Positions 14,154-40,487 of a DNA stretch of 64,000 nucleotides are shown here, piece by piece. The position numbers and the translations under genes are program-made. The notes under the pieces were generated by a model. It saw nothing but the letters and a program-made list of their open reading frames with translations, did not search any database and had not been told where the DNA came from. This DNA comes from a virus (Duplodnaviria > Caudoviricetes): positions 1 to 64,000 of IMG/VR virus record IMGVR_UViG_3300026158_000083; one strand, written 5' to 3'. How positions within the stretch are numbered: position 1 is the stretch's first letter; each line of letters opens with the position of its first letter.

Positions 14154-16829
14154 ATGACTGCTAAAGACGGCACGCCGCAAGCGGTGTGCTTCTATCCTCG
14201 CTTTGCTTCGCACGAATTAGGTGGCGTAGCTGTACATATCCGCTATCTGGCGCGCCATCTACAAAAACTTGGTTTTACAATTGTTGATACACCAGACGAA
14301 AACACGCTTATTCACGCGCACGCACAAGCGCGACCTGAAAACATAACGGTTTACTCAAATCATGGGATTTACCCGATAAAAGACAAAATGCCAGCGTGGC
14401 AGATTGGCACCAATGCCGCGATCTTCGACAATCTAAAACTAGCTACTGAAATTATTGCTGTCAGTAACTGGACGGCTAATCAATGGCAGCATTTGGTCGG
14501 ACGTCAACCGCATATCATTCACAATTCAATTGACATGGATGAGTGGCATAGTGCGCCTGCCGGTCAGTGGCGCGCACGACTAAAAGTGCCGAACAAAACG
14601 CCGCTAATTTTGTGGGGTAAGACTTCGCTTAGCGATGTGCTTGATCCAACACCGCTTATTGAATTGGCGCTTCATCATCCTAATATGCGCTTTGTCGCGC
14701 CATTGACGCCGCGCATGTTAACGACAAGTCTAAAAAACCTTTCACTAATTGGTCAACAGCCGTTTGAAGATATGCGCGCCTTGCTACAAGATTGCGATGT
14801 CTACTTGGCTACTGTGCAGGAAAATCATAGTATTCAAGTTCTGGAAGCTATGGCGCTGAAAAAGCCAATTTTAGGTTATAATTGGGGCGGTACTGGTGAA
14901 ACGTTAAATATTTCAGGCCAAACGCGCGGTGGCATTTTGACAGAGCCGCGCGATCTTATCAAATTGATCGCGTTATTGCCTGAAGTTTACGAACAGCGCG
15001 TCAAACTCGGTCAAGACGGTCACGAACTTGTTGCTGAATATTTTTCAGCAGCCAAGCAGATGCCTAAACTAGTAGAGGTGTACAAGATGGCGCTAGAAAA
15101 GAAACCAAGACAGTCTCGCGCATCACCTATAGTGCGTTGTTCAATCGTTATTCCGGTTTATAATAAGGGTCCCTACATTGGCGAAACGGTCAACAGCGCA
15201 TTGCGTCAGATCAACGCGCCCAAGCACGAAGTCATTGTCGTCGATGACGGTTCCACGGATGATTCGCTACTAAATGCAAGACGTGCGGCTGAAGGTCGCA
15301 CCAATATTCGCTTTTACTCACTGCCTAATGGCGGTGTTTCAGCGGCGCGCAATTTCGGCATAAGTCACGCGAAGGGCGAATATATTTGCTGTCTTGACGC
15401 CGATGACTTGATCGATCCTAATTTTCTAAGTCGTCTTTCAGCAGCACTGGATGCCGATCCTGGTCTTGGTATCGCCTATAGCGATTTTGTAGCTTTTGGC
15501 ACAAATCAAAGAGGCATGCCATTTGAAGCGCCAATAACCTGTGAAGAATACGATTTTGAAAAACTCAAGCGCGGCAATCTCATGCCGTGCTGTAATCTGT
15601 TTAGGCGCACGGCTTGGGAACGCGCAGGCGGCTATAAGCCAATCAATCCGTCGTGGGAAGATTACGAACTCTGGCTGAACATGGGCAAGCTTGGCTGGTA
15701 TGGCCGACGTGTGCCGGGTCATTTGTTCAAGTATCGCAAAGTGCCGAAGACTGGACGCGATTATCAGTCGCAGGGGCTGGAATGGAAACTGCGCGCGACG
15801 GTCAATAGCTATCATCGCGATCTTTATCCGCCGCTAGTAAGCATTATCATACCATGCTACAAACACAGTCATTTTTTGCGCACCGCCATTGATAGCGTTC
15901 TGGCGCAGACTTTCAACGATTACGAAGTGCTGGTTGTAGATGACGGTAATGATGCTGATGAGCTAAACTCAATTCGCGAAATTGTTGAAAGTTACGCCAA
16001 TCCAAACGTACGCGTGGTGCGTCACACACAGAATATGGGTCTTGCCGCCGCGCGTAACACTGGCGTAGAGATGGCGCGCGGTCAGTGGATCGTACCGCTA
16101 GATGCTGACGACAAGCTTGCGCATGAGTTTCTGGAAGAAGTGTTGCGCGCATCTGAGCAGTTGAATCCCAATCGCTTTGTCTATGCAGACACCTATTTGT
16201 GGTGGCCGGATGCCGATCCGGAAACTAAGCTGTTAGCCGCCAACGATTACAATTTTGACGAAAGTCTTAGCAAGATAACGTGGTCATGCACGATTTTGTT
16301 TCATCGTGATGCATGGCAACGCGTTGGTGGCTACAAACCGCAGATGTCGGAACTTGGCGGTTGGGAAGATTGGGAATTCGCGATTTCGTTGGGCGAAAAC
16401 GGTATTTGCGGCGTGCATGTTGCTAAGCCGTTATTCTATTATCGCCAACATTCTAATACGCAGATGCGCATGCAGGCCGAAAGCAATAAGCCAGTCTTGC
16501 AAGAGGCGATTCGTCGCTTGCATAGCGAAGTTTATCGCGGGGAGAGAACTCAAATGTGTTGTGGAGCAGGTAAACGCACGCGTCCTGTAGCGACCGTAGA
16601 TCAGACCGTACCCGTTGCGCGTACTATGCCGCAAATCGCAGCCGCAACTTCAAACACGAATGATCGTGTTTTGATTCGCTATGTCGGCACGCATCTAGGT
16701 TCGCAGACCTGGGTCGCGCCAAGCGGCGAACGCTATCGTTTCGGCTTGAATGATCCGCTGCAAAGGGTGCGCTATGAAGATGTTGACTTCTTTATCAGCC
16801 GCGGGCCATTTAGACAGGTAACAGCATGA
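14154..16829 (+). CDS. Tri-domain glycosyltransferase (GT4 + GT2 + GT2) with a small C-terminal domain
   Basis: GT-B: ENHSIQVLEAMA. GT-A 1: SIVIPVYN-VVDDGSTD-LDADD. GT-A 2: SIIIPCY-VVDDG-LDADD-WEDWE. Confidence 0.9.
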   Translation: MTAKDGTPQAVCFYPRFASHELGGVAVHIRYLARHLQKLGFTIVDTPDENTLIHAHAQARPENITVYSNHGIYPIKDKMPAWQIGTNAAIFDNLKLATEIIAVSNWTANQWQHLVGRQPHIIHNSIDMDEWHSAPAGQWRARLKVPNKTPLILWGKTSLSDVLDPTPLIELALHHPNMRFVAPLTPRMLTTSLKNLSLIGQQPFEDMRALLQDCDVYLATVQENHSIQVLEAMALKKPILGYNWGGTGETLNISGQTRGGILTEPRDLIKLIALLPEVYEQRVKLGQDGHELVAEYFSAAKQMPKLVEVYKMALEKKPRQSRASPIVRCSIVIPVYNKGPYIGETVNSALRQINAPKHEVIVVDDGSTDDSLLNARRAAEGRTNIRFYSLPNGGVSAARNFGISHAKGEYICCLDADDLIDPNFLSRLSAALDADPGLGIAYSDFVAFGTNQRGMPFEAPITCEEYDFEKLKRGNLMPCCNLFRRTAWERAGGYKPINPSWEDYELWLNMGKLGWYGRRVPGHLFKYRKVPKTGRDYQSQGLEWKLRATVNSYHRDLYPPLVSIIIPCYKHSHFLRTAIDSVLAQTFNDYEVLVVDDGNDADELNSIREIVESYANPNVRVVRHTQNMGLAAARNTGVEMARGQWIVPLDADDKLAHEFLEEVLRASEQLNPNRFVYADTYLWWPDADPETKLLAANDYNFDESLSKITWSCTILFHRDAWQRVGGYKPQMSELGGWEDWEFAISLGENGICGVHVAKPLFYYRQHSNTQMRMQAESNKPVLQEAIRRLHSEVYRGERTQMCCGAGKRTRPVATVDQTVPVARTMPQIAAATSNTNDRVLIRYVGTHLGSQTWVAPSGERYRFGLNDPLQRVRYEDVDFFISRGPFRQVTA

Positions 16830-17503
16830 AGACGTGGTTTATACCAACTGTCATGGTGCGCAATGAAGAACATCATATTGCGCAAGTGTTGCGACCGCTT
16901 GTTGCAGTTTGTGGTCACGTCATGCTCGGCGATACAGGTTCGACTGACAATACCGTAGCGATTGCCAAGCAAATCGACGGCGTAGAAATTATCGAATACG
17001 GCCAGCAATCGCAAATCGGTCTTACTGAAACGCGGCATAATTTGGGTCTACGCGTCAAAGAAAAAGGCTGCAAATGGCAGTTGCTGTGCGATGGCGATGA
17101 ACTGTACAATGTAACTACGTTGCAACACATCGCGAATGAAGGTATGCCGAATGACAAGTTGACCGGCTTCACGAAAATGAAGTCCATCGATGCCGATACA
17201 GATGGCTCGCTTTGGGAAATGAACGACAAGTTTTCGCGTGCCGCGCTTCTGCCAGCCGATACAACCTGGCATGGCATCTATCCATTCGATGTACCGGACT
17301 GTTATCGTTACGATGCTAAATACTATTATTTTTCACTAGCGCAGGGCTATGAATATCACGCCGTGCATTTGCATCGCTTGACACGCAGCCCGCAGGACGC
17401 CGATGTAGTTTTGCGCATGACAAAACAAAAGCAGTTTGCCATGCGCGACGTAATTGTGCCGCGCACGATTATCTTCGATCTGGATTGGTGGTGCCGACAA
17501 TGA
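16826..17503 (+). CDS. GT2-like glycosyltransferase
   Basis: VRNEE-GDTGSTDNT-CDGDE (DxD) motifs. Confidence 0.85.
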   Translation: MKTWFIPTVMVRNEEHHIAQVLRPLVAVCGHVMLGDTGSTDNTVAIAKQIDGVEIIEYGQQSQIGLTETRHNLGLRVKEKGCKWQLLCDGDELYNVTTLQHIANEGMPNDKLTGFTKMKSIDADTDGSLWEMNDKFSRAALLPADTTWHGIYPFDVPDCYRYDAKYYYFSLAQGYEYHAVHLHRLTRSPQDADVVLRMTKQKQFAMRDVIVPRTIIFDLDWWCRQ

Positions 17504-18171
17504 GTTTGCCGAAAATCAGCGTCATCATTCCATCGCGTGATCGACCGCAGGGTTTACTGGCCGCAATTGAGTCAATTCGCGCCACGCAGGGCGCTTACGA
17601 CGTTGAAATTATTGCGGTGTTAGATGAGCCTGACGAGCTTAGCCAAAAGACTTTGCTGGACGAACATTCTGACGTGAAGATCGTCATTGGTGGTCCAGGC
17701 GATTATTATCTTGGCAAACCACAGGACAAATACAATCTCGGCTACGCAGCTTCGACTGGCGAATGGATTGTTACCGGATCAGACGATATCACGTTTGAGT
17801 CGCAAGATTGGATCGGTGAGTGTCTGCGCTGCAATCGCGGCGGCTTCGTCGGCATCAGCGATGGCGGTCAAGATGTAAACTGGTGCTGTGTTATCCATAT
17901 GGCGTCGCGCGCGTATATTGACACAGTGATGCGCGGCTATCTCGGTCTGCCCTGGTATCATGTCTGGTGGGCCGACGTTGAGTGGACACAGCGTGCTAAA
18001 ATGTGCGGCTTGCACGCCGCGTGCACGACGATCAAGTTGACGCACCATCACTGGCTGCGCGGTAATGCGACTAAAGATACAATCGCGGAACTGGTACAAC
18101 AATTAGCGCCGGAAGATCAGAAGACCTATACCAGGCGTGTCGCGCGGCGCTTTGCAGATGATTTGCCATGA
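17500..18171 (+). CDS. GT2-like glycosyltransferase
   Basis: ISVIIPSRDR-GEWIVTGSDD-WWADVE motifs. Confidence 0.85.
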   Translation: MSLPKISVIIPSRDRPQGLLAAIESIRATQGAYDVEIIAVLDEPDELSQKTLLDEHSDVKIVIGGPGDYYLGKPQDKYNLGYAASTGEWIVTGSDDITFESQDWIGECLRCNRGGFVGISDGGQDVNWCCVIHMASRAYIDTVMRGYLGLPWYHVWWADVEWTQRAKMCGLHAACTTIKLTHHHWLRGNATKDTIAELVQQLAPEDQKTYTRRVARRFADDLP

Positions 18172-19178
18172 GGTGTGTAATGGAAAATACTTTTGATCGG
18201 CTAGAACGCGTTGAAAATCTACTGCGCGCTATGCTAGGTCGTTCTTCGCAGCGGCTCAGCGTCTTGATTACAGGCGGCACTGGTACGTTAGGGATCGCTC
18301 TAACCGAAGCGTTTATTAATAGAGGTTATACCGTAACTGTTGTTAGTCGCAATCCGCATCGTCAGAGTCAGTTCAAACAAAAATATCCTAACGTCGAGCT
18401 ATATTTGGCCGATATTTGCGATTACGAAACCATGCTGCGCGCGTGTACCGGCAAGGATATTGTTATTCACGCGGCGGCTCTGAAGCGTGTTGATATTGGC
18501 GAAAGCGAGATTGCTGAATTCGCGCGTGTCAACATCGACGGCACTAAGACTGTAGCAGATGCCTGTCGTGCCGCAGGTGTTGAACGCGCGTTGTTCATAT
18601 CTTCGGACAAGGCCGTCAGCGCGCTGAACTTTTACGGTGTCACCAAGGCCGCTGGCGAACGTATCTGGCTAGACCATCATGAAGGCAACAGCAATCTTGG
18701 TGTGCGCTTCAGCGCAGTGCGTTACGGCAACGTAATGGGTTCCAACGGCAGTGTGCTGCAAATTTGGCGCGAACGTTTGGCTAAGCAGTTGCCCATTGTC
18801 GTGCGTTCACCAAGCACAACGCGTTTCTTTATGCGCGTTGAAGACGCCGTGCAAATGATTTTTGACGCGCTGCTCTACATGCAGGGTAACGAGATTTTCG
18901 TGCCGCTAACTACACCAGCCTTCGCATTGCATGATGTAGCTTTGTGCGTTGCACCGCGCAGCGAGTGGTGCATAGAACCGCTAGGCCCGCGCGAGAAGCA
19001 GCACGAACTGCTTGTCGCACCCGGCGAATATTATGAGACTGTCAGCGACAGGCTGTGTAAGATCATTCCAGATGTACCTGGTGACTTTACGCTACCTGAT
19101 TGGGCTTGTTCAAGGACGACGCGTCAGCTTGACGGTAAGACGGTGATTGAGATGCTGGAGAAAAGCGATCATGCTTGA
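18168..19178 (+). CDS. NDP-sugar 4,6-dehydratase, PseB/FlaA1/CapD-like extended SDR
   Basis: TGGTGTLG, HAAALK, S-SDK, YGVTK and RYGNVMGSNGSV motifs. Confidence 0.9.
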   Translation: MRCVMENTFDRLERVENLLRAMLGRSSQRLSVLITGGTGTLGIALTEAFINRGYTVTVVSRNPHRQSQFKQKYPNVELYLADICDYETMLRACTGKDIVIHAAALKRVDIGESEIAEFARVNIDGTKTVADACRAAGVERALFISSDKAVSALNFYGVTKAAGERIWLDHHEGNSNLGVRFSAVRYGNVMGSNGSVLQIWRERLAKQLPIVVRSPSTTRFFMRVEDAVQMIFDALLYMQGNEIFVPLTTPAFALHDVALCVAPRSEWCIEPLGPREKQHELLVAPGEYYETVSDRLCKIIPDVPGDFTLPDWACSRTTRQLDGKTVIEMLEKSDHA

Positions 19179-19521
19179 TATTTTGCTTATCGGTTTAGCG
19201 GCATGGCGTTTGGCGCATATGCTGGTCAAAGAGGATGGCCCGTTTGAAATGTTCAGCAAGCTGCGTAAGTTAGTTGGTATCGAGCAGATTGTTGTGCGAG
19301 ACGGCGATAAAGTTGACGTTGCGCTAACAGCCAAAAACACGCTGGCGGAAGGTTTGCTGTGCGTGTGGTGCGTATCAGTGTGGACGGCTACGCTGTTGTA
19401 TGTCGGTACGCTGATCCCGCCTTTGCACGCGCCGTTTATATGGTTTAGTAGCATTTTGGCGATTAGCGCGCTAGCTATCGTCGTGCAGGAGTTTGTTACA
19501 GCTTTGCGGGGAGAAGAATAA
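19171..19521 (+). CDS. DUF1360-like membrane protein
   Basis: AAWRLAHML-DGPF-LR and LLCVWCVSVW (CxxC) in hydrophobic helices. Confidence 0.7.
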   Translation: MLDILLIGLAAWRLAHMLVKEDGPFEMFSKLRKLVGIEQIVVRDGDKVDVALTAKNTLAEGLLCVWCVSVWTATLLYVGTLIPPLHAPFIWFSSILAISALAIVVQEFVTALRGEE

Positions 19522-20093
19522 TGATCGATTCGCCGTGGGATAGACCGAATGTAGCCAATGAAATCGATGCGTATTGGGCCTGTCAGGATGAAACTGCCGC
19601 GCGCAAAGTTGTCGTGGCAGATTTGAAGCCGCATTTGCATGATGGCGATATTATGGATATCGGTTGTGGTAGCGGGCGCATTTATGAGACGTTGCGCGAC
19701 TTTGACATCATCAAAGAGCATCGCTATCGTGGTTATGATAGTTCACGCGAGATGATTGCCATTGCTAAAGGTCGCTACAAGCGCGTCAAGTTTGAATATG
19801 CTGATCTTATGGATATCGATCAACCAGCAGCCAACGTAATTTGTATCAATGTTTTGCAGCATATCGATGATTGGCAGACGACTACCAGCAAGATGTTGGG
19901 ACTAGCCGAAAAGATGCTCTATGTCGTCGCGTGGTTTGGCAGCACGGCTAGTCGCAAATACGATAGCGGTACGGGTTTCTGGAATAACTGGCTGGATCAT
20001 CAGAAATTCGTAGATTTTTGTCAGCCACACGGTATAGTTATCAGCCGTATGAATCTATGGGGTACGGTGGGTTCTGTAACAGTCTACAAGTGA
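19521..20093 (+). CDS. Class I SAM-dependent methyltransferase
   Basis: IMDIGCGSG motif I, GYDSSREMI, VLQH. Confidence 0.9.
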   Translation: MIDSPWDRPNVANEIDAYWACQDETAARKVVVADLKPHLHDGDIMDIGCGSGRIYETLRDFDIIKEHRYRGYDSSREMIAIAKGRYKRVKFEYADLMDIDQPAANVICINVLQHIDDWQTTTSKMLGLAEKMLYVVAWFGSTASRKYDSGTGFWNNWLDHQKFVDFCQPHGIVISRMNLWGTVGSVTVYK

Positions 20094-20099
20094 GTTGCA

Positions 20100-20681
20100 A
20101 TGGATAAACCAGCATTTGTATATTCAATTCAACCGAATCCAGATTACGGTTACATCGTAGATGGCGAACACATTTTTTTGCGACCTATGCAGCCTAATCT
20201 ACGAGATGGTTATTACGTGACGCGCTGGCGCAATCACGATAGCGCGCGTGTGGCGTTTTGGAACACACAGATTGTCACGCCGGAAAGTCATATCAACTGG
20301 TTGAATAAAAAATCACCTTATGATATGGTGTGGATGGGTTGTAAGCACGGCACGTCTAAACCGATTGGTATGGTTGGCCTAATAATTGATCCGGCAACGC
20401 ATAGCGGAGAAGCTGGCCGTTACTTTGTCGATCAAGATGAGCGCGGTAACGGTTTTGGCGTCGATCTTGATAAGCTGGTTATCGCGACGGCATTTCAGTT
20501 GTTCAACCTAAACGCGATTTGGCTGGACGCTTGGGCGGCTAACGAAACCGCCATGAACATGCACATCAAGAACGGTTGGCGTGTAGCCGGTTACGATATT
20601 GCCGGTCACACACGCGTCGATGGTAGCGTAGTACACATGATAATCACTGCTAACGACTGGCATGTATTGCATGCGCCGTGA
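20100..20681 (+). CDS. GNAT N-acetyltransferase (PseH-like)
   Basis: WRN-HINW N-terminus as in PseH; ERGNGFG acetyl-CoA motif; NETAMNMHIKNGW. Confidence 0.8.
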   Translation: MDKPAFVYSIQPNPDYGYIVDGEHIFLRPMQPNLRDGYYVTRWRNHDSARVAFWNTQIVTPESHINWLNKKSPYDMVWMGCKHGTSKPIGMVGLIIDPATHSGEAGRYFVDQDERGNGFGVDLDKLVIATAFQLFNLNAIWLDAWAANETAMNMHIKNGWRVAGYDIAGHTRVDGSVVHMIITANDWHVLHAP

Positions 20682-20694
20682 ATAGTGGTATGAT
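20667..20694 (+). promoter_or_regulatory. Internal extended -10 promoter before the aminotransferase
   Basis: TTGCAT, 16 bp, TGnTATGAT. Confidence 0.45.
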
Positions 20695-20722
20695 ACTGTC
20701 ATTCTAGCGAAAGGCTGGTTTC

Positions 20723-21790
20723 ATGATTCAGGTTCTGCAACCGGCATATACCGAATCTGACATTGCCGCAGTTAGCGAAGCCATGCGCAGTTGCTGGTGG
20801 GGTTTGGGTCCGCGCTGCGTTGAGCTTGAAAAACAGTTGACCGAACGCAGCGGTTATAAGTACGCCGTAACTGTTAATTCGGCAACATCTGCGCTACATC
20901 TGGCCTTGCTGGCTAACAATGTTGGACCCGGCGATGAAGTAATCGTTCCAGCTCTGACATTCATTTCAACAGCGCTTGCAGTTACGTACACCGGCGCGAC
21001 GCCTGTATTTGCAGATATCGATCCAACAACGCTGACGCTGGATTGGCGCGATGTGCGTTCAAAAATTACTTGGCGCACAAAAGCGGTCATTCCGGTAGAC
21101 TATGCCGGACAGCCTGCGTGGCCGAGCGCGCTGCCTGCTAACATCACAATTGTTGAAGATGCGGCGCACAATGTGCTTGGTTCGCATTATGGCGATGCCG
21201 TTTGCTATTCATTCCATCCAGTCAAGCAACTGGCTACGGCTGATGGCGGCGCGATTCTTACCAACAATGCGCAACAGGCCGCTAGACTGCAAGCGCTGCG
21301 TTGGTGTGGTATAGATCGTTCAACGTGGCAGCGCAGCGGTAAACGCTATTCGTGGGATTATGATATTGCTGAAGTTGGTTATAAATACCAATTCAATGAT
21401 ATACAAGCTGCATTAGCGCTTTCGCAGCTAACACGTTGGGATGAGATTGTTGCTAGACGCCGCGCGATGGTAGATTACTATTTCAAAGAATTGCGCGGCA
21501 TCGATGGTTTAGAATTACCAGCAGATAGTGCCGGCCATACCTGGCATCTGTTTGTCGTGCGCGTCGCGTCAGAAAAGCGCGACGACTTACTGGACTATCT
21601 GGCCGCAAAAGGCATTGGCGCAGGCGTGCATTACAAACCATTGACGCACTATAAACCTTATCTGCAAGAGACGCCGCCGTTGACCGAAAAGGTTTGGCGC
21701 AGATTGGTTACGTTGCCGCTACATCTCAATCTTAGTGTCGAAGATCAGGCGCAGGTATGCACGGCTATCAAGGAATATTTGGCTAAGTGA
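20723..21790 (+). CDS. DegT/DnrJ/EryC1/StrS PLP-dependent sugar aminotransferase (PseC/VioA-like)
   Basis: NSATSALHLAL, EDAAH, YSFHPVK (PLP lysine), GYKYQFNDIQAAL. Confidence 0.92.
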   Translation: MIQVLQPAYTESDIAAVSEAMRSCWWGLGPRCVELEKQLTERSGYKYAVTVNSATSALHLALLANNVGPGDEVIVPALTFISTALAVTYTGATPVFADIDPTTLTLDWRDVRSKITWRTKAVIPVDYAGQPAWPSALPANITIVEDAAHNVLGSHYGDAVCYSFHPVKQLATADGGAILTNNAQQAARLQALRWCGIDRSTWQRSGKRYSWDYDIAEVGYKYQFNDIQAALALSQLTRWDEIVARRRAMVDYYFKELRGIDGLELPADSAGHTWHLFVVRVASEKRDDLLDYLAAKGIGAGVHYKPLTHYKPYLQETPPLTEKVWRRLVTLPLHLNLSVEDQAQVCTAIKEYLAK

Positions 21791-37030: not shown

Positions 37031-38638
37031 ATGAGCGCGATTATTGGGCCGCATATAGCTGGCAGTATTTCAGAGCATCTGAATCTACTCGCGCGTTGGC
37101 AACCTAGATTATCGTGGTGGCTTGACCCGGATAAAGATGGCGCGATTGAATATCATAAGCGCTGTCGCGGTAAACTAGGTGGCCGTATTTACGTGCCGGA
37201 TGATGAGATGACCTGGCGTATTGAAAGCGATCCTCTTGCAGCGGCCAATTTTGCGCACACTAAAATCATCACACATCCGGCGTGCTATCAGATCGACTAC
37301 TGGCAAATAGAGAACGAAGTCTGTCAATTCTGGCATCAACTTGGCCGACTCAACGATTACGTATGTGAACGTATGCGACTGGCTAATCAAGCCGGTTATC
37401 ACTGTGGTATCATAGCTACATCGGTTGGCAATCTGCATATGCCAGAAGACGACCGCATGGCTTATTATCGTCAGCTATATTCGGCTTTCGATATGGCTAT
37501 CGCGGGTCAGCATGTAGTAGTCAAGCATCTGTATGGTGCGCCTGATTTATACGGACCGTGGGAGCGCGGTGGCGCACCGTGGTTTATCAATCGACTGGAA
37601 GAACAGTTGCTGCCGCGCTTGCCTGAAAAATATCGCAACTTGCAGTTTGCCATTGCTGAATACGGCATTGACTACTTGTTGATTCAAAGCACACCGCAGG
37701 GCTGGCGCGGCAAGATGTCCGCCGACGACTATGCGCTTAGTCTGATTCAGATGGGTCAATGGCTAGAGCAGTTTAGTAAACAAGTTGTTGGTTACTGTGT
37801 TTATGAGTTGGGTTGCGTAGATGAGGCTAATTGGGGGACTTACAATATTGCGGGGTCAGTTGCGGAGCGCTTAGCAGATTACTATAGCAGCAGCAATCAG
37901 ACGCCGCCGCTGCCACCAGTACCAGCACCGGAGGAAAATATGACTCGCATTATCGATACTAACGGCGCAGAACACGATGAAGCATGGTTGACCTCTAAAT
38001 ATGGTGCAATCATCACGCGCGTCAGTTCAAGCGGCAAGCGTTTTACGCTTAGCGAAGTGCAAGTAACAGAAGGTCCGGCCACGCTGATCGCCATTGTCAA
38101 GGATAGTTCTGGCGTACCTCTCAACTCACACGCGGTTGCGCTGTATTGGCCGGACGCGCCTACCGATCTTACGACTCCTGAGACCGCAGTTTTCAAGACG
38201 CGTTTCAAGCCGCGCGCGAATGTACAGTGGACGGATACTAATGGCATGACGGGCTATGGCTTAGGCATGGGTTCGTACATCTATGAAGTTGCAACGGGTG
38301 GACCCCATGCTGTATGGTTGCTACACAATCTCTACGAATCAGACGCCATAGACCGTGTTGGCATGCTGGCAGGCACAAATCACGTCGGGCCGTTGCGTCT
38401 CACGTTTACGCTAACTGAAAAGACACAGGAAATCGGTCAATTGCCAGAAAGTGAGCCAATAGCGCCTGTTGCAATACTGGCCGACAAGGTGCGCTGGTGG
38501 ATGGAAGAATCTGTGCGTCAAGACGAAATCGGCAATAACGCGTATGCCAAAGCCATTCGTTACAGCCTCATCAAACGCGATGGCGGTCTGCTATACAGAC
38601 TTGAAGCGGCTTTGAAAGGCGGCATGGGGAGTAACTAA
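37031..38638 (+). CDS. Putative clan GH-A glycoside hydrolase with C-terminal beta-sandwich (endolysin position)
   Basis: WQIENE (acid/base candidate), HLYG, FAIAEYG (nucleophile candidate); Pro linker; second domain. Confidence 0.55.
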   Translation: MSAIIGPHIAGSISEHLNLLARWQPRLSWWLDPDKDGAIEYHKRCRGKLGGRIYVPDDEMTWRIESDPLAAANFAHTKIITHPACYQIDYWQIENEVCQFWHQLGRLNDYVCERMRLANQAGYHCGIIATSVGNLHMPEDDRMAYYRQLYSAFDMAIAGQHVVVKHLYGAPDLYGPWERGGAPWFINRLEEQLLPRLPEKYRNLQFAIAEYGIDYLLIQSTPQGWRGKMSADDYALSLIQMGQWLEQFSKQVVGYCVYELGCVDEANWGTYNIAGSVAERLADYYSSSNQTPPLPPVPAPEENMTRIIDTNGAEHDEAWLTSKYGAIITRVSSSGKRFTLSEVQVTEGPATLIAIVKDSSGVPLNSHAVALYWPDAPTDLTTPETAVFKTRFKPRANVQWTDTNGMTGYGLGMGSYIYEVATGGPHAVWLLHNLYESDAIDRVGMLAGTNHVGPLRLTFTLTEKTQEIGQLPESEPIAPVAILADKVRWWMEESVRQDEIGNNAYAKAIRYSLIKRDGGLLYRLEAALKGGMGSN

Positions 38639-39019
38639 GTGTTTTGCAGATTGCGGCTGAGCGACGGAATACGTGATCTTGTTGAGCAGTTGATACGACC
38701 AAATTTAGACGTTGATGGTCGCAAACTAACTGCCATCTACTTGATTTTGAATGGTATTTCGCGTATTACTTTGACGCCGATTGTTGCCCTTGATTTCGTA
38801 AATGATCGTTATTACGGCATAGCTGCCGTTATTTTAGGCGTGCTGATTGTTATTACGTCTTTCAAGGGCTACAATCGCACAGCGCTAGGCCGTATTACGG
38901 CCTTACTTGGTGCCAGTCTACTTATAGCATGGGGTTTTGATTTGACGTATCGCGCCAATGCATTTTGGTCGATGCAAATATTGGGTTTTGTTCTTTTCAG
39001 GGAAGCGATTCGCAGATAA
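38639..39019 (+). CDS. Membrane protein, holin-like
   Basis: 3-4 hydrophobic segments; abuts the hydrolase gene. Confidence 0.55.
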   Translation: MFCRLRLSDGIRDLVEQLIRPNLDVDGRKLTAIYLILNGISRITLTPIVALDFVNDRYYGIAAVILGVLIVITSFKGYNRTALGRITALLGASLLIAWGFDLTYRANAFWSMQILGFVLFREAIRR

Positions 39020-39021
39020 CT

Positions 39022-39876
39022 ATGGAACAAAACTTATCACTTAATTCGTCGATTGAGATAGGCTTGCTGGTTTGTTTTATCGGCATTGTTTGGTTGCTGA
39101 TACTATACGCTTCAGATAGACGACGTGCCGCAAATAGATTCTTTCAGTCTGCGGAGCGCGATATGTCAGCAGCTAAAATCACAGAACTTTCCAACACAGT
39201 AGCTACGCTGCTTGTTGAGCTAACCAGCGCGCGCCAGGAAATTGAAAATCTGAAGCTCCAGTTATCCAGGGCCAACGCGCGCATTACTGAACTGGAAATC
39301 ATGTATGAGTTTCCAGCAACGCAGGGCGGTCACGGTTCGTTGCATCGTCGTTTGTTGCGCCCGCTATTAGTTATTGGCGGAGATGACGCTAAGATTGCCG
39401 GTATGGATCAAGCTGTTTTAGACGGTATTGGCATACGTTACGTGCGGCTCGCCAACGCAACTAAAGACGTTGTCGTCAATGAACTAACAGCAGTAAGGCG
39501 CGAAAACAGGCTATATGATTGGGTGCTGATTTCGGCGCACGCCAATCAGGACGGCGTGCGCCTCTTTAGCGCTAATCAGCCCAACAAAAGCGAAATCGTT
39601 TCACCTGAATTCTGGTCGCGCGCCTTGACTGGCGTAAGCATGGTCGGTCTCGCAGCTTGTAGCGGCTCACAGTTAGCCGAAAAGATTAGTTGTGCGGTTG
39701 AATTCGTCTGGTATTTCAAAGAAGATGTGCCATCTGAACCGGCCAGTCGCTTTGTACAGAAGTTTTTTCAGCGTCTAAATGCTGGTGACAACTATAAGAC
39801 GGCGTTTGTCGCGTGCCTCGACGCCGTACCAGAAGTAGCGTCGTACGCCGATTATCGCTGCAAGTACGGCTGCTAG
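39022..39876 (+). CDS. Transmembrane + coiled-coil + CHAT/caspase-like peptidase
   Basis: N-terminal TM; heptads; YDWVLISAHA (His) and VGLAACS (Cys); ASRFVQKFFQRLNAG-AF C-terminal CHAT helix. Confidence 0.72.
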   Translation: MEQNLSLNSSIEIGLLVCFIGIVWLLILYASDRRRAANRFFQSAERDMSAAKITELSNTVATLLVELTSARQEIENLKLQLSRANARITELEIMYEFPATQGGHGSLHRRLLRPLLVIGGDDAKIAGMDQAVLDGIGIRYVRLANATKDVVVNELTAVRRENRLYDWVLISAHANQDGVRLFSANQPNKSEIVSPEFWSRALTGVSMVGLAACSGSQLAEKISCAVEFVWYFKEDVPSEPASRFVQKFFQRLNAGDNYKTAFVACLDAVPEVASYADYRCKYGC

Positions 39877-40487
39877 GGCGCTGGCGTTACCGAGCGCCAG
39901 ATGGAGTGCTGCGTAACCTCTATGCAGTTCATCACGCGCTGTGGTCCGGCAGACACGTTGAACGTTTCAATGCGATGCTGTGTCAGAAATGTTTCCCACG
40001 TCACGATGCCGATAAGATGAACGATTTTGCTTTCTTCGTTTAGGTACATCAGCGCCAGCTTTAGCGGTTCGCACTTGATGCTTTGGGGAACTTTTAGCAC
40101 AGGCGGCCAGTAAACGGTCGTCTTGATATCTGTGCCATCGGCAGCATCGTAACCAGCATCGCCGTAGGTATGCATCGCGCCATCAACCGTTTTGCCGGTC
40201 AGCAGCGCAAAACCTATTTCACCAGCCACGCCCGGTAAATGCGTTGACTTGCCATTGCGCCAATCGTGCGTCGAATCGCGCGACCGCTTATCATTCTCGC
40301 GGGTTTCGGCAATCAATTCAATGAATGACCAGATCGGCGCGAGATACAGCGCCCAATAATCGCGCGGCGCAGGGTCTGGCATAGTAAGATCGCTAGGTAA
40401 TCTCACGATCTTACTATAACCAGCCGCCGCGTCGGCAATACTATCAGGTTGGATTGGGAGTGTCATCGTATTCAGGCACACCATCAT
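39873..40487 (-). CDS. Restriction-endonuclease-fold (PD-(D/E)xK) protein
   Basis: GVAGEIGF-GDAGYD-DIKT motif series. True start uncertain. Confidence 0.55.
   Translation of the reverse strand: MMVCLNTMTLPIQPDSIADAAAGYSKIVRLPSDLTMPDPAPRDYWALYLAPIWSFIELIAETRENDKRSRDSTHDWRNGKSTHLPGVAGEIGFALLTGKTVDGAMHTYGDAGYDAADGTDIKTTVYWPPVLKVPQSIKCEPLKLALMYLNEESKIVHLIGIVTWETFLTQHRIETFNVSAGPQRVMNCIEVTQHSIWRSVTPAP

What the first reader, a model, noticed from the sequence alone, without database searches (positions are those of the whole stretch)
39022..39876. Membrane-anchored caspase-like (CHAT) protease ending the lysis cassette
Seen: TM helix, coiled coil, then a domain with ISAHA and LAACS at CHAT His/Cys spacing. 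It is the last + strand gene, after a hydrolase and a holin-like gene. Established: CHAT domains are clan CD proteases, known in bacteria from defence and signalling systems, while this position in diderm phages holds spanins. Inference: a protease-assisted lysis step against a proteinaceous envelope such as an S-layer, or a decoy for host caspase-like defence. The usual HG dyad reads HA, so activity is not certain.
Basis: partly seen in the sequence, partly recalled or inferred. Interest (0 to 1): 0.82.

Follow-up and report, generated by a model that had tools for sequence, protein, structure and literature searches.

The report
Phage membrane-tethered caspase-like (CHAT) protease
An uncultured phage, probably of Chloroflexota, encodes a small caspase-like cysteine protease tethered to the inner face of the host membrane and always paired with a small holin-like membrane protein beside the cell-wall hydrolase genes, a kind of lysis-cassette gene I found described for no studied phage.

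Summary
Window 39022-39876 (+) encodes a 284-aa protein with four parts:
- an N-terminal transmembrane helix
- a long coiled coil
- a flexible linker
- a C-terminal CHAT/caspase-fold domain

The fold match is strong: VIA Z 19.0, rmsd 2.3 A over 166 residues, and Foldseek E 1.5e-9, both to SAVED-CHAT 8tl0. His173 and Cys213 align with that enzyme's catalytic dyad H375/C422.

The gene belongs to a metagenomic family of at least 130 clusters at 50% identity. Cys is invariant (146/146) and His is present in 138/146. Fifty of 124 members hit Pfam CHAT.

In 11 of 12 other gene neighbourhoods the gene follows a 118-163-aa gene, tightly coupled and usually with an 11-nt overlap. Where DNA could be read, that gene encodes a 4-TM protein. 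Cell-wall hydrolase or binding genes (Amidase_2, GH clan-A TIM barrel, SH3_3) lie close by in eight of them, so the link to lysis genes holds.

Charge bias (124 of 126 members) predicts N-out/C-in, so the protease sits in the cytoplasm. That is the opposite of a spanin and does not fit an S-layer-directed enzyme.

My best reading is a lysis-cassette protease working with the holin-like partner. Its substrate is unknown.

The scan has noted similar genes on other DNA (e1-3017915, e1-4292103). I found no published description.

The parts
39022..39876 (+). Gene for the 284-aa TM / coiled-coil / CHAT protease (P0001), including stop TAG 39874-39876
   Evidence: ORF and translation; 22 close homologs and 132 representative clusters
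39052..39111 (+). N-terminal transmembrane anchor (residues about 11-30), predicted N-out/C-in
   Evidence: Hydropathy 2.59. K+R bias after the TM helix in 124 of 126 members
39154..39300 (+). Coiled-coil stalk (residues about 45-93)
   Evidence: AF2 continuous helix 5-93; coiled-coil-type matches only
39301..39360 (+). Flexible linker (residues 94-113), pLDDT below 50
   Evidence: AF2 low-confidence segment 93-108. The sequence is conserved only among close relatives
39361..39873 (+). CHAT / caspase-hemoglobinase-fold domain (residues 114-284) with His173 (39538-39540) and Cys213 (39658-39660)
   Evidence: VIA Z 19.0 and Foldseek E 1.5e-9 to 8tl0. Profile alignment places the dyad on H375/C422. 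Cys in 146/146 and His in 138/146 members. Codons checked
38639..39019 (+). Partner gene: 126-aa holin-like membrane protein with an amphipathic N-terminal helix and four hydrophobic helices. Its stop lies 2 nt before the protease ATG
   Evidence: Homologous proteins sit upstream of the protease gene in L001-L004, with 15 invariant columns, and weakly in L022. AF2 helices. No Pfam or PHROG family
37031..38638 (+). 535-aa putative endolysin: N-terminal GH clan-A-like TIM barrel (residues 1-290), Pro-rich linker, second domain. No signal peptide or TM helix
   Evidence: Atlas structural look-alikes are GH5/GH42/Asl1-like, and viral proteins carrying GH108, M23 or Amidase_2. A 47%-identical domain is fused to Peptidase_M23 in L024. 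No TM helix

Best explanation
The gene encodes an active clan CD (CHAT-type) cysteine protease of a tailed phage.

Proposed mechanism:
- A short N-terminal tail crosses the membrane. One TM helix anchors the protein, and a roughly 50-residue coiled coil probably pairs two chains.
- A flexible linker holds the protease domain at the cytoplasmic face of the membrane.
- The gene is co-translated with a 4-TM holin-like protein. Together with a signal-less cell-wall hydrolase, the three genes form the phage's lysis cassette.
- The TM/coiled-coil half most likely behaves like the N-out/C-in single-TMD 'second holin-like' proteins of actinophages (LysF1b).
- The protease adds a proteolytic step at the membrane, coupled to hole formation. 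It would cut its 4-TM partner, its own linker in trans (as proposed for DdvA), or membrane-proximal host proteins, and so set or reinforce the lysis trigger.

Shown here: fold, aligned dyad, family-wide conservation, gene pairing, and neighbourhood with wall hydrolases.
Inferred: topology (from charge bias), dimerisation, protease activity, a role in lysis, and every candidate substrate.
For: Fold and active site:
- VIA Z 19.0, rmsd 2.3 A over 166 aa to SAVED-CHAT; Foldseek E 1.5e-9.
- Family profile to 8tl0 at E 1.1e-7, with His173/Cys213 on the residues mutated in dead SAVED-CHAT, H375/C422.
- 50 of 124 relatives hit Pfam CHAT, best E 1.3e-11.
- Cys in 146/146 and His in 138/146 members.

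Topology: 124 of 126 members carry more K+R after the TM helix than before it.

Gene pair:
- In 11 of 12 other gene neighbourhoods a 118-163-aa gene lies directly upstream, usually with an 11-nt overlap.
- These upstream proteins are homologous 4-TM proteins wherever DNA could be read.

Lysis link:
- Amidase_2 lies directly downstream in L022, followed by Glyco_hydro_cc.
- Amidase_2 lies upstream in L003 and in the P0024 contig.
- SH3_3 lies directly upstream of the partner gene in four contigs.
- In the window, a GH TIM-barrel protein without an export signal sits upstream. Its homolog is fused to Peptidase_M23.
- The partner and this protein are the only TM proteins in the window's cassette.

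Precedents:
- LysF1b, an N-out/C-in holin-like protein needed for efficient lysis (PMC13056207).
- The DdvA dimer, whose CHAT site faces the TM-to-CHAT linker of the other chain (PMC11506125).
Against: - There is no experimental data for any family member.
- The partner is called holin-like only from its size, TM helices and position. It matches no holin family.
- Eight of 146 members replace the catalytic His (N/D/E/R/V) while keeping the Cys. One of them (P0155, His to Glu) keeps the gene pair. The canonical dyad is therefore not strictly required in every lineage.
- The end of a late operon is also a common site for accessory (moron) genes.
- In one distant member (P0098, L023) the upstream gene does not encode a membrane protein.
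- The host and its envelope are inferred, not known.
Confidence: 0.55

Rival explanations
1. Accessory (moron) module. The 4-TM protein and the tethered protease form a phage-carried superinfection-exclusion or abortive-infection pair. It kills or blocks the cell when a competing phage arrives, and is not part of the phage's own lysis pathway.
For: The pair sits at the boundary between the late operon and the divergently transcribed genes, a typical moron site. Cellular CHAT proteases work in defence and cell-death circuits. Chloroflexota genomes hold small CHAT proteins paired with membrane proteins.
Against: The pair persists across members only 33-50% identical, in phages whose other genes differ. 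It stays with wall-hydrolase genes even where the order is rearranged: in L022 it lies before Amidase_2 with a 4-nt overlap. It matches no PADLOC defence model. No sensor domain is present.
Confidence: 0.17
2. Counter-defence or host-takeover protease. It cleaves a host membrane-associated immune effector or signalling protein, or acts as a decoy for host caspase-like systems.
For: The likely host phylum carries many CHAT proteins: 27 of 401 sampled genomes match at E <= 1e-8. Membrane tethering would suit membrane-bound targets.
Against: The tight coupling to a holin-like gene and to endolysins is not what anti-defence genes usually show. The gene sits in the late-gene block. An invariant catalytic Cys argues against a pure decoy. 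Weak Tad4-like hits in downstream genes are below threshold.
Confidence: 0.13
3. First reader's model. The protease acts outside the membrane on a proteinaceous envelope layer (S-layer), taking the place of a spanin.
For: The position after the hydrolase and the holin-like gene, and a TM plus coiled-coil shape superficially like an i-spanin (weak PHROG 89 Rz-like hit at E 0.046).
Against: Charge bias predicts the opposite topology in 124 of 126 members, and N-tails have essentially no positive charge. There is no lipoprotein partner ORF. A thiol protease is better suited to the reducing cytoplasm (my own knowledge).
Confidence: 0.05
4. Non-catalytic scaffold. The CHAT fold serves only as a binding or oligomerisation module on a holin-like or antiholin protein.
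For: The His is lost in 8 of 146 members while the gene pair is kept. The DdvA CHAT site is incomplete.
Against: The Cys is invariant, the His is kept in 95% of members, and small residues follow the His as in active clan CD enzymes.
Confidence: 0.1

Closest known systems
SAVED-CHAT of Haliangium ochraceum (PDB 8tl0; type III-B CRISPR/CBASS protease)
   Same: It has the closest fold (Z 19.0, rmsd 2.3 A over 166 aa) and the only significant sequence-profile hit in the PDB (E 1.1e-7). The His/Cys dyad aligns with H375/C422.
   Different: It has no SAVED sensor, is about 17-18% identical, and is phage-encoded. It is membrane-tethered through a TM helix and coiled coil, and its gene context is lysis genes rather than CRISPR/CBASS.
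DdvA of Myxococcus xanthus (PDB 8rot/8rw5; transmembrane anti-sigma factor with TPR-CHAT)
   Same: It is a single-pass membrane protein with a CHAT domain joined to the TM helix by a flexible linker. It forms a dimer, and trans-autocleavage of the linker has been proposed. Fold Z is 14.9.
   Different: The DdvA CHAT domain is periplasmic, preceded by TPRs and has an incomplete site. The protein is about 1000 aa and cellular. Here the domain is predicted cytoplasmic, has no TPR, and the protein is 284 aa.
HetF of Anabaena PCC 7120 (membrane-anchored CHAT protease at the divisome)
   Same: It is a CHAT protease with one TM segment in a filamentous bacterium, and its function is tied to septal peptidoglycan synthesis through FtsI.
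   Different: HetF is large (its CHAT region spans residues 1-555, followed by TM and TPR), cellular, and has a different domain order. No sequence relation beyond the CHAT fold was tested.
LysF1b-type holin-like proteins of cluster F1 mycobacteriophages
   Same: [quoted passage not shown] It is encoded next to another multi-TMD holin-like protein and endolysins, and is needed for efficient lysis (PMC13056207). This is an analogue for the N-terminal half and the gene position.
   Different: It has no protease domain. No sequence homology was shown or tested.
Rz-type i-spanins
   Same: It has an N-terminal TM helix followed by a coiled coil, and its gene lies at the distal end of a lysis cassette.
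   Different: Spanins are N-in/C-out with a periplasmic coiled coil, and they need an outer-membrane lipoprotein partner. Here the predicted topology is the opposite, there is no partner ORF, and an enzyme domain is added.

Membership tests
CHAT domain proteases (Pfam PF12770; clan CD) | Caspase-hemoglobinase alpha/beta fold | tested here: met
   AF2 model has pLDDT 82 overall and 80-96 in the domain. VIA Z 19.0 to 8tl0, 14.9 to DdvA, 12.0 to Csx29, about 11 to separases and caspases. Foldseek E 1.5e-9.
CHAT domain proteases (Pfam PF12770; clan CD) | Catalytic His and Cys at the ends of adjacent core strands, aligned with a proven dyad | tested here: met
   The profile alignment puts His173 and Cys213 on the His and Cys of 8tl0 that are 47 residues apart, matching H375/C422. 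The strands end at residues 175 and 213. The 3D distance between the two residues could not be read, because no model coordinates are available.
CHAT domain proteases (Pfam PF12770; clan CD) | Score above the Pfam gathering cut-off | tested here: inconclusive
   P0001 alone scores 12.4 bits against a cut-off of 24 (E 0.11). However, 50 of 124 family members hit CHAT at E < 0.01, best 1.3e-11.
CHAT domain proteases (Pfam PF12770; clan CD) | Cys-dependent peptidase activity | not testable with these tools
   This needs a biochemical assay.
i-spanin (Rz-like) | N-in/C-out topology with a periplasmic coiled coil | tested here: not met
   124 of 126 members have more K+R after the TM helix than before it (3.4 against 0.07). 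This is a prediction only.
i-spanin (Rz-like) | Cognate o-spanin lipoprotein gene, embedded, overlapping or adjacent | tested here: not met
   No lipobox ORF lies within or next to 39022-39876. The next gene is convergent on the minus strand.
LysF1b-type N-out/C-in holin-like lysis proteins | Single N-terminal TMD, N-out/C-in, encoded beside another TMD protein and endolysin | tested here: met
   This is a functional class, not a sequence family.
LysF1b-type N-out/C-in holin-like lysis proteins | Lysis defect on deletion | not testable with these tools
   This needs phage genetics.
Bacterial gasdermin / protease cell-death operons and other known defence systems | Adjacent gasdermin or another known effector, or a match to defence-system models | tested here: not met
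   No PADLOC match for the protease, its partner or its neighbours. The neighbours are a 4-TM protein and a glycoside hydrolase.

The most novel reading that the evidence does not exclude
Phages of Chloroflexota, and perhaps other monoderm-type hosts, use a caspase-like protease as an integral executioner or timer of lysis. The tethered CHAT enzyme would proteolytically arm its 4-TM partner, or release itself, to trigger membrane holes. That would be a viral protease-plus-pore death module analogous in logic to caspase-gasdermin, and a new class of lysis protein beside holins, endolysins and spanins.
Probability: 0.3. Interest if true: 0.85.

Novelty: new variant of a known kind. Interest (0 to 1): 0.68.

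Why it matters
Phage lysis is currently explained by holins, endolysins, spanins and a few regulators. No protease is part of that scheme.

This family has at least 130 clusters at 50% identity and is strictly paired with a holin-like gene inside lysis cassettes. A role in lysis would add a proteolytic step to the pathway. It would also extend caspase-like enzymes from host defence to the virus's own killing programme.

It would give a first handle on how phages lyse Chloroflexota, an abundant and poorly studied phylum with an atypical envelope.

The protein is small, and the catalytic Cys offers a clean mutant, so the question is directly testable by heterologous expression.

Tried and rejected
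- Pattern scans of IMG/VR and GTDB genomes with the close-family alignment found no further loci. The wide alignment was too diverse to scan.
- tblastn against GenBank phages (INPHARED) found nothing.
- PHROGs gave only a weak Rz-like coiled-coil hit.
- PADLOC and NCBIfam gave only coiled-coil noise.
- A search for longer, fused forms of the CHAT domain found none, which is weak evidence.
- Larger or TM-less representatives carry only CHAT.
- The holin-like partner has only three close homologs by word search. Its AF2 model has pLDDT 65, too poor for a fold search.
- Promoter and terminator scans gave no more sites than shuffled sequence.
- The 183-aa 'short forms' (P0021, P0022) are not soluble variants. 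In L002 and L003 the N-terminal half lies in another frame, probably through assembly indels.
- The 204-aa convergent neighbour is unrelated to the 205-aa gene downstream of homologs.
- Literature searches for CHAT or caspase in phage lysis cassettes found only a passing annotation of a CHAT protein in a B1 mycobacteriophage.

Full report
**What is there.** The window is part of a 73.7-kb IMG/VR virus record, estimated 88% complete. All long + strand ORFs from about 500 to 39876 form one block. It includes a 1743-aa ORF, probably the tape measure by its size, and beta-helix tail-fibre proteins. After 39876 the genes run on the minus strand.

The last three + strand genes are packed with gaps of 0 and 2 nt:
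- 37031-38638, 535 aa
- 38639-39019, 126 aa
- 39022-39876, 284 aa (P0001)

The ISAHA and LAACS motifs are present. Their His173 and Cys213 codons lie at 39538-39540 and 39658-39660.

**Fold and family.** Pfam on the single sequence gives only a sub-threshold CHAT hit (E 0.11, 12.4 bits). Homolog searches found 22 close relatives and 132 representative clusters at 50% identity, nearly all 250-300 aa.

An AF2 model built from 21 sequences (pLDDT 82) shows three regions:
- one long helix, residues 5-93
- a disordered linker, residues 94-113
- an alpha/beta domain, residues 114-284

Foldseek against the PDB ranks the SAVED-CHAT filament 8tl0 first (E 1.5e-9), followed by C11 proteases, caspases and DdvA. 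The Foldseek-independent aligner gives these scores:

| Target | Z | Detail |
|---|---|---|
| 8tl0 | 19.0 | rmsd 2.3 A over 166 residues |
| DdvA | 14.9 | |
| Csx29 | 12.0 | |
| separases, caspases | about 11 | |

A profile of 124 family members hits 8tl0 at E 1.1e-7. It aligns the family His with the His of an 'HG' motif and the family Cys with the first Cys of 'NACC', 47 residues apart. The dyad mutated in catalytically dead SAVED-CHAT is H375/C422, also 47 apart.

Fifty of the 124 members hit Pfam CHAT on their own, best E 1.3e-11. Membership of the CHAT superfamily is therefore established through structure, profile and transitive hits, although P0001 alone stays below Pfam's cut-off.

**Is it an enzyme?** Over 148 members the Cys is present in all 146 that cover the column. 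The His is present in 138.

Eight members replace the His with N, D, E, R or V and keep the Cys. One of them, P0155 (His to Glu), still has the full gene pair. I have no explanation for the Cys being more conserved than the His. It leaves some room for a non-canonical or non-catalytic role in those lineages.

**Topology.** A strong N-terminal TM helix is present in 122 of 143 full-length members. In 124 of 126 members with such a helix, the 15 residues after it hold more K+R than the N-tail (mean 3.4 against 0.07). The N-tail has a median length of 5 residues and is often acidic. By the positive-inside rule this predicts N-out/C-in, so the coiled coil and the protease are cytoplasmic. This is a prediction, but a very consistent one. 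It is the opposite of an i-spanin.

**Neighbours.** The 126-aa protein has an amphipathic N-terminal helix and four hydrophobic helices and matches no known family.

The 535-aa protein has no signal peptide or TM helix. Its residues 1-290 resemble GH clan-A TIM barrels (GH5/GH42/Asl1-like). They also resemble viral proteins that carry GH108, Peptidase_M23 or Amidase_2 modules. Chloroflexota is the commonest phylum among the look-alikes.

A 47%-identical copy of this domain is fused to Peptidase_M23 in a Caldilineaceae MAG. That MAG also holds a family member of the protease, HXF60308.1.

An endolysin-like enzyme without an export signal needs a holin. The only membrane proteins in the cassette are the 126-aa protein and the protease itself.

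**Conserved gene pair.** Twelve other gene neighbourhoods were read. In eleven of them a 118-163-aa gene lies directly upstream, usually overlapping the protease start by 11 nt. The twelfth (L006, P0130, no TM helix) lacks it.
- Where DNA was available, the upstream proteins are homologous 4-TM proteins: 15 invariant columns at about 25% identity, with a weaker match in L022.
- The upstream gene of the distant member P0098 (L023) is the exception: it does not encode a membrane protein.

Cell-wall genes are close by in eight of the twelve:
- Amidase_2 two genes upstream in L003 and four genes upstream in the P0024 contig.
- Amidase_2 directly downstream with a 4-nt overlap in L022, followed by Glyco_hydro_cc.
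- A small SH3_3 protein directly upstream of the partner in four contigs.
- The distant, TM-less P0130 lies two genes from a weak Phage_holin_6_1 hit.

The pair thus moves together, and it stays with lysis genes even where the gene order is rearranged. This is the main argument for a lysis role over a moron role.

**Host.** Four lines of evidence point to Chloroflexota, perhaps Caldilineaceae-like. None is decisive.
- The atlas taxa for the hydrolase.
- The Caldilineaceae MAG that carries relatives of both the hydrolase and the protease.
- CHAT-domain matches in 27 of 401 sampled genomes of that phylum.
- Thr/Pro-rich linkers in the tail-fibre protein.

Chloroflexota are generally held to lack an outer membrane (my own knowledge). 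That would make spanins unnecessary.

**Mechanism.** I commit to this reading: the protein is a lysis-cassette component in which a LysF1b-like N-out/C-in anchor (PMC13056207) carries a caspase-like protease at the inner membrane face. Coiled-coil pairing would bring two protease domains together, as caspases and DdvA dimers require. The flexible linker is a candidate trans-cleavage site, as proposed for DdvA (PMC11506125). The partner's cytoplasmic N-terminal helix and host membrane-proximal proteins are further candidate substrates. HetF shows that a membrane-anchored CHAT protease can act on septal wall synthesis. All substrate proposals are inference, and the complex predictor was closed.

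**Known or new?** I found:
- no match in PHROGs, GenBank phages, PADLOC or NCBIfam
- only uncharacterised caspase-fold phage proteins in BFVD
- no paper on caspase-like proteases in phage lysis cassettes, only a passing CHAT annotation in a mycobacteriophage

Earlier notes of this scan describe similar genes in other genomes. They are AI notes. I treated them as leads only, and my conclusions rest on the tests above.

**Verdict.** I class it as a new variant of a known kind, a CHAT protease in a new architecture and viral lysis context, with a 0.3 chance of being a new class of lysis protein.

Noticed in passing
window 14154-21790 (+): A sugar-modification cluster lies inside the structural/late gene block. 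It holds an 891-aa double GT2 glycosyltransferase, two further GT2 genes, a Polysacc_synt_2 dehydratase (E 1.7e-57), a DUF1360 3-TM protein, a methyltransferase, a GNAT acetyltransferase and a DegT-like aminotransferase. It may glycosylate the virion or modify the host surface.
   Followed up: partly
window 37031-38638 (+): The putative endolysin is a GH clan-A-like TIM barrel rather than a muramidase or amidase. Related domains are fused to Peptidase_M23, Amidase_2 or GH108 in other phages and in a Caldilineaceae MAG. Its C-terminal 230-aa domain has no match.
   Followed up: partly
window 39873-39900: The protease stop (TAG 39874-39876) and the stop of the convergent 204-aa minus-strand gene overlap in a CTAG palindrome. 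A GC hairpin (GGCGCT...AGCGCC) follows, so there is no intergenic space for a terminator.
   Followed up: no
family members P0019, P0022, P0027/P0155, P0036, P0045, P0110, P0120, P0152: The catalytic His is replaced by N, D, E, R or V while the Cys is kept in every member. The His-to-Glu variant P0155 retains the holin-like partner and the SH3_3 neighbour.
   Followed up: partly
L012:1327-2016 (+) and L016:1435-2184 (-): Chloroflexota genomes carry small cellular CHAT proteins (229 and 249 aa, with canonical HG and AC motifs). Each is adjacent to a conserved 421-432-aa membrane protein. This is a separate two-gene cellular system of unknown role.
   Followed up: no
L002:9771-10552 and L003:9736-10552: The two 183-aa 'short' homologs are frameshifted copies. 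The TM/coiled-coil part lies in another frame just upstream. These are probably indel errors in the assemblies.
   Followed up: yes
L001:10864-11478, L002:10585-11190, L004:8874-9524: A roughly 200-217-aa protein near the protease gene gives sub-threshold Tad4 (Thoeris inhibitor) hits in all three loci and a CED4 winged-helix hit in L001. It lies just downstream in L001 and L002, and upstream of the partner gene in L004. None reaches the cut-off.
   Followed up: no
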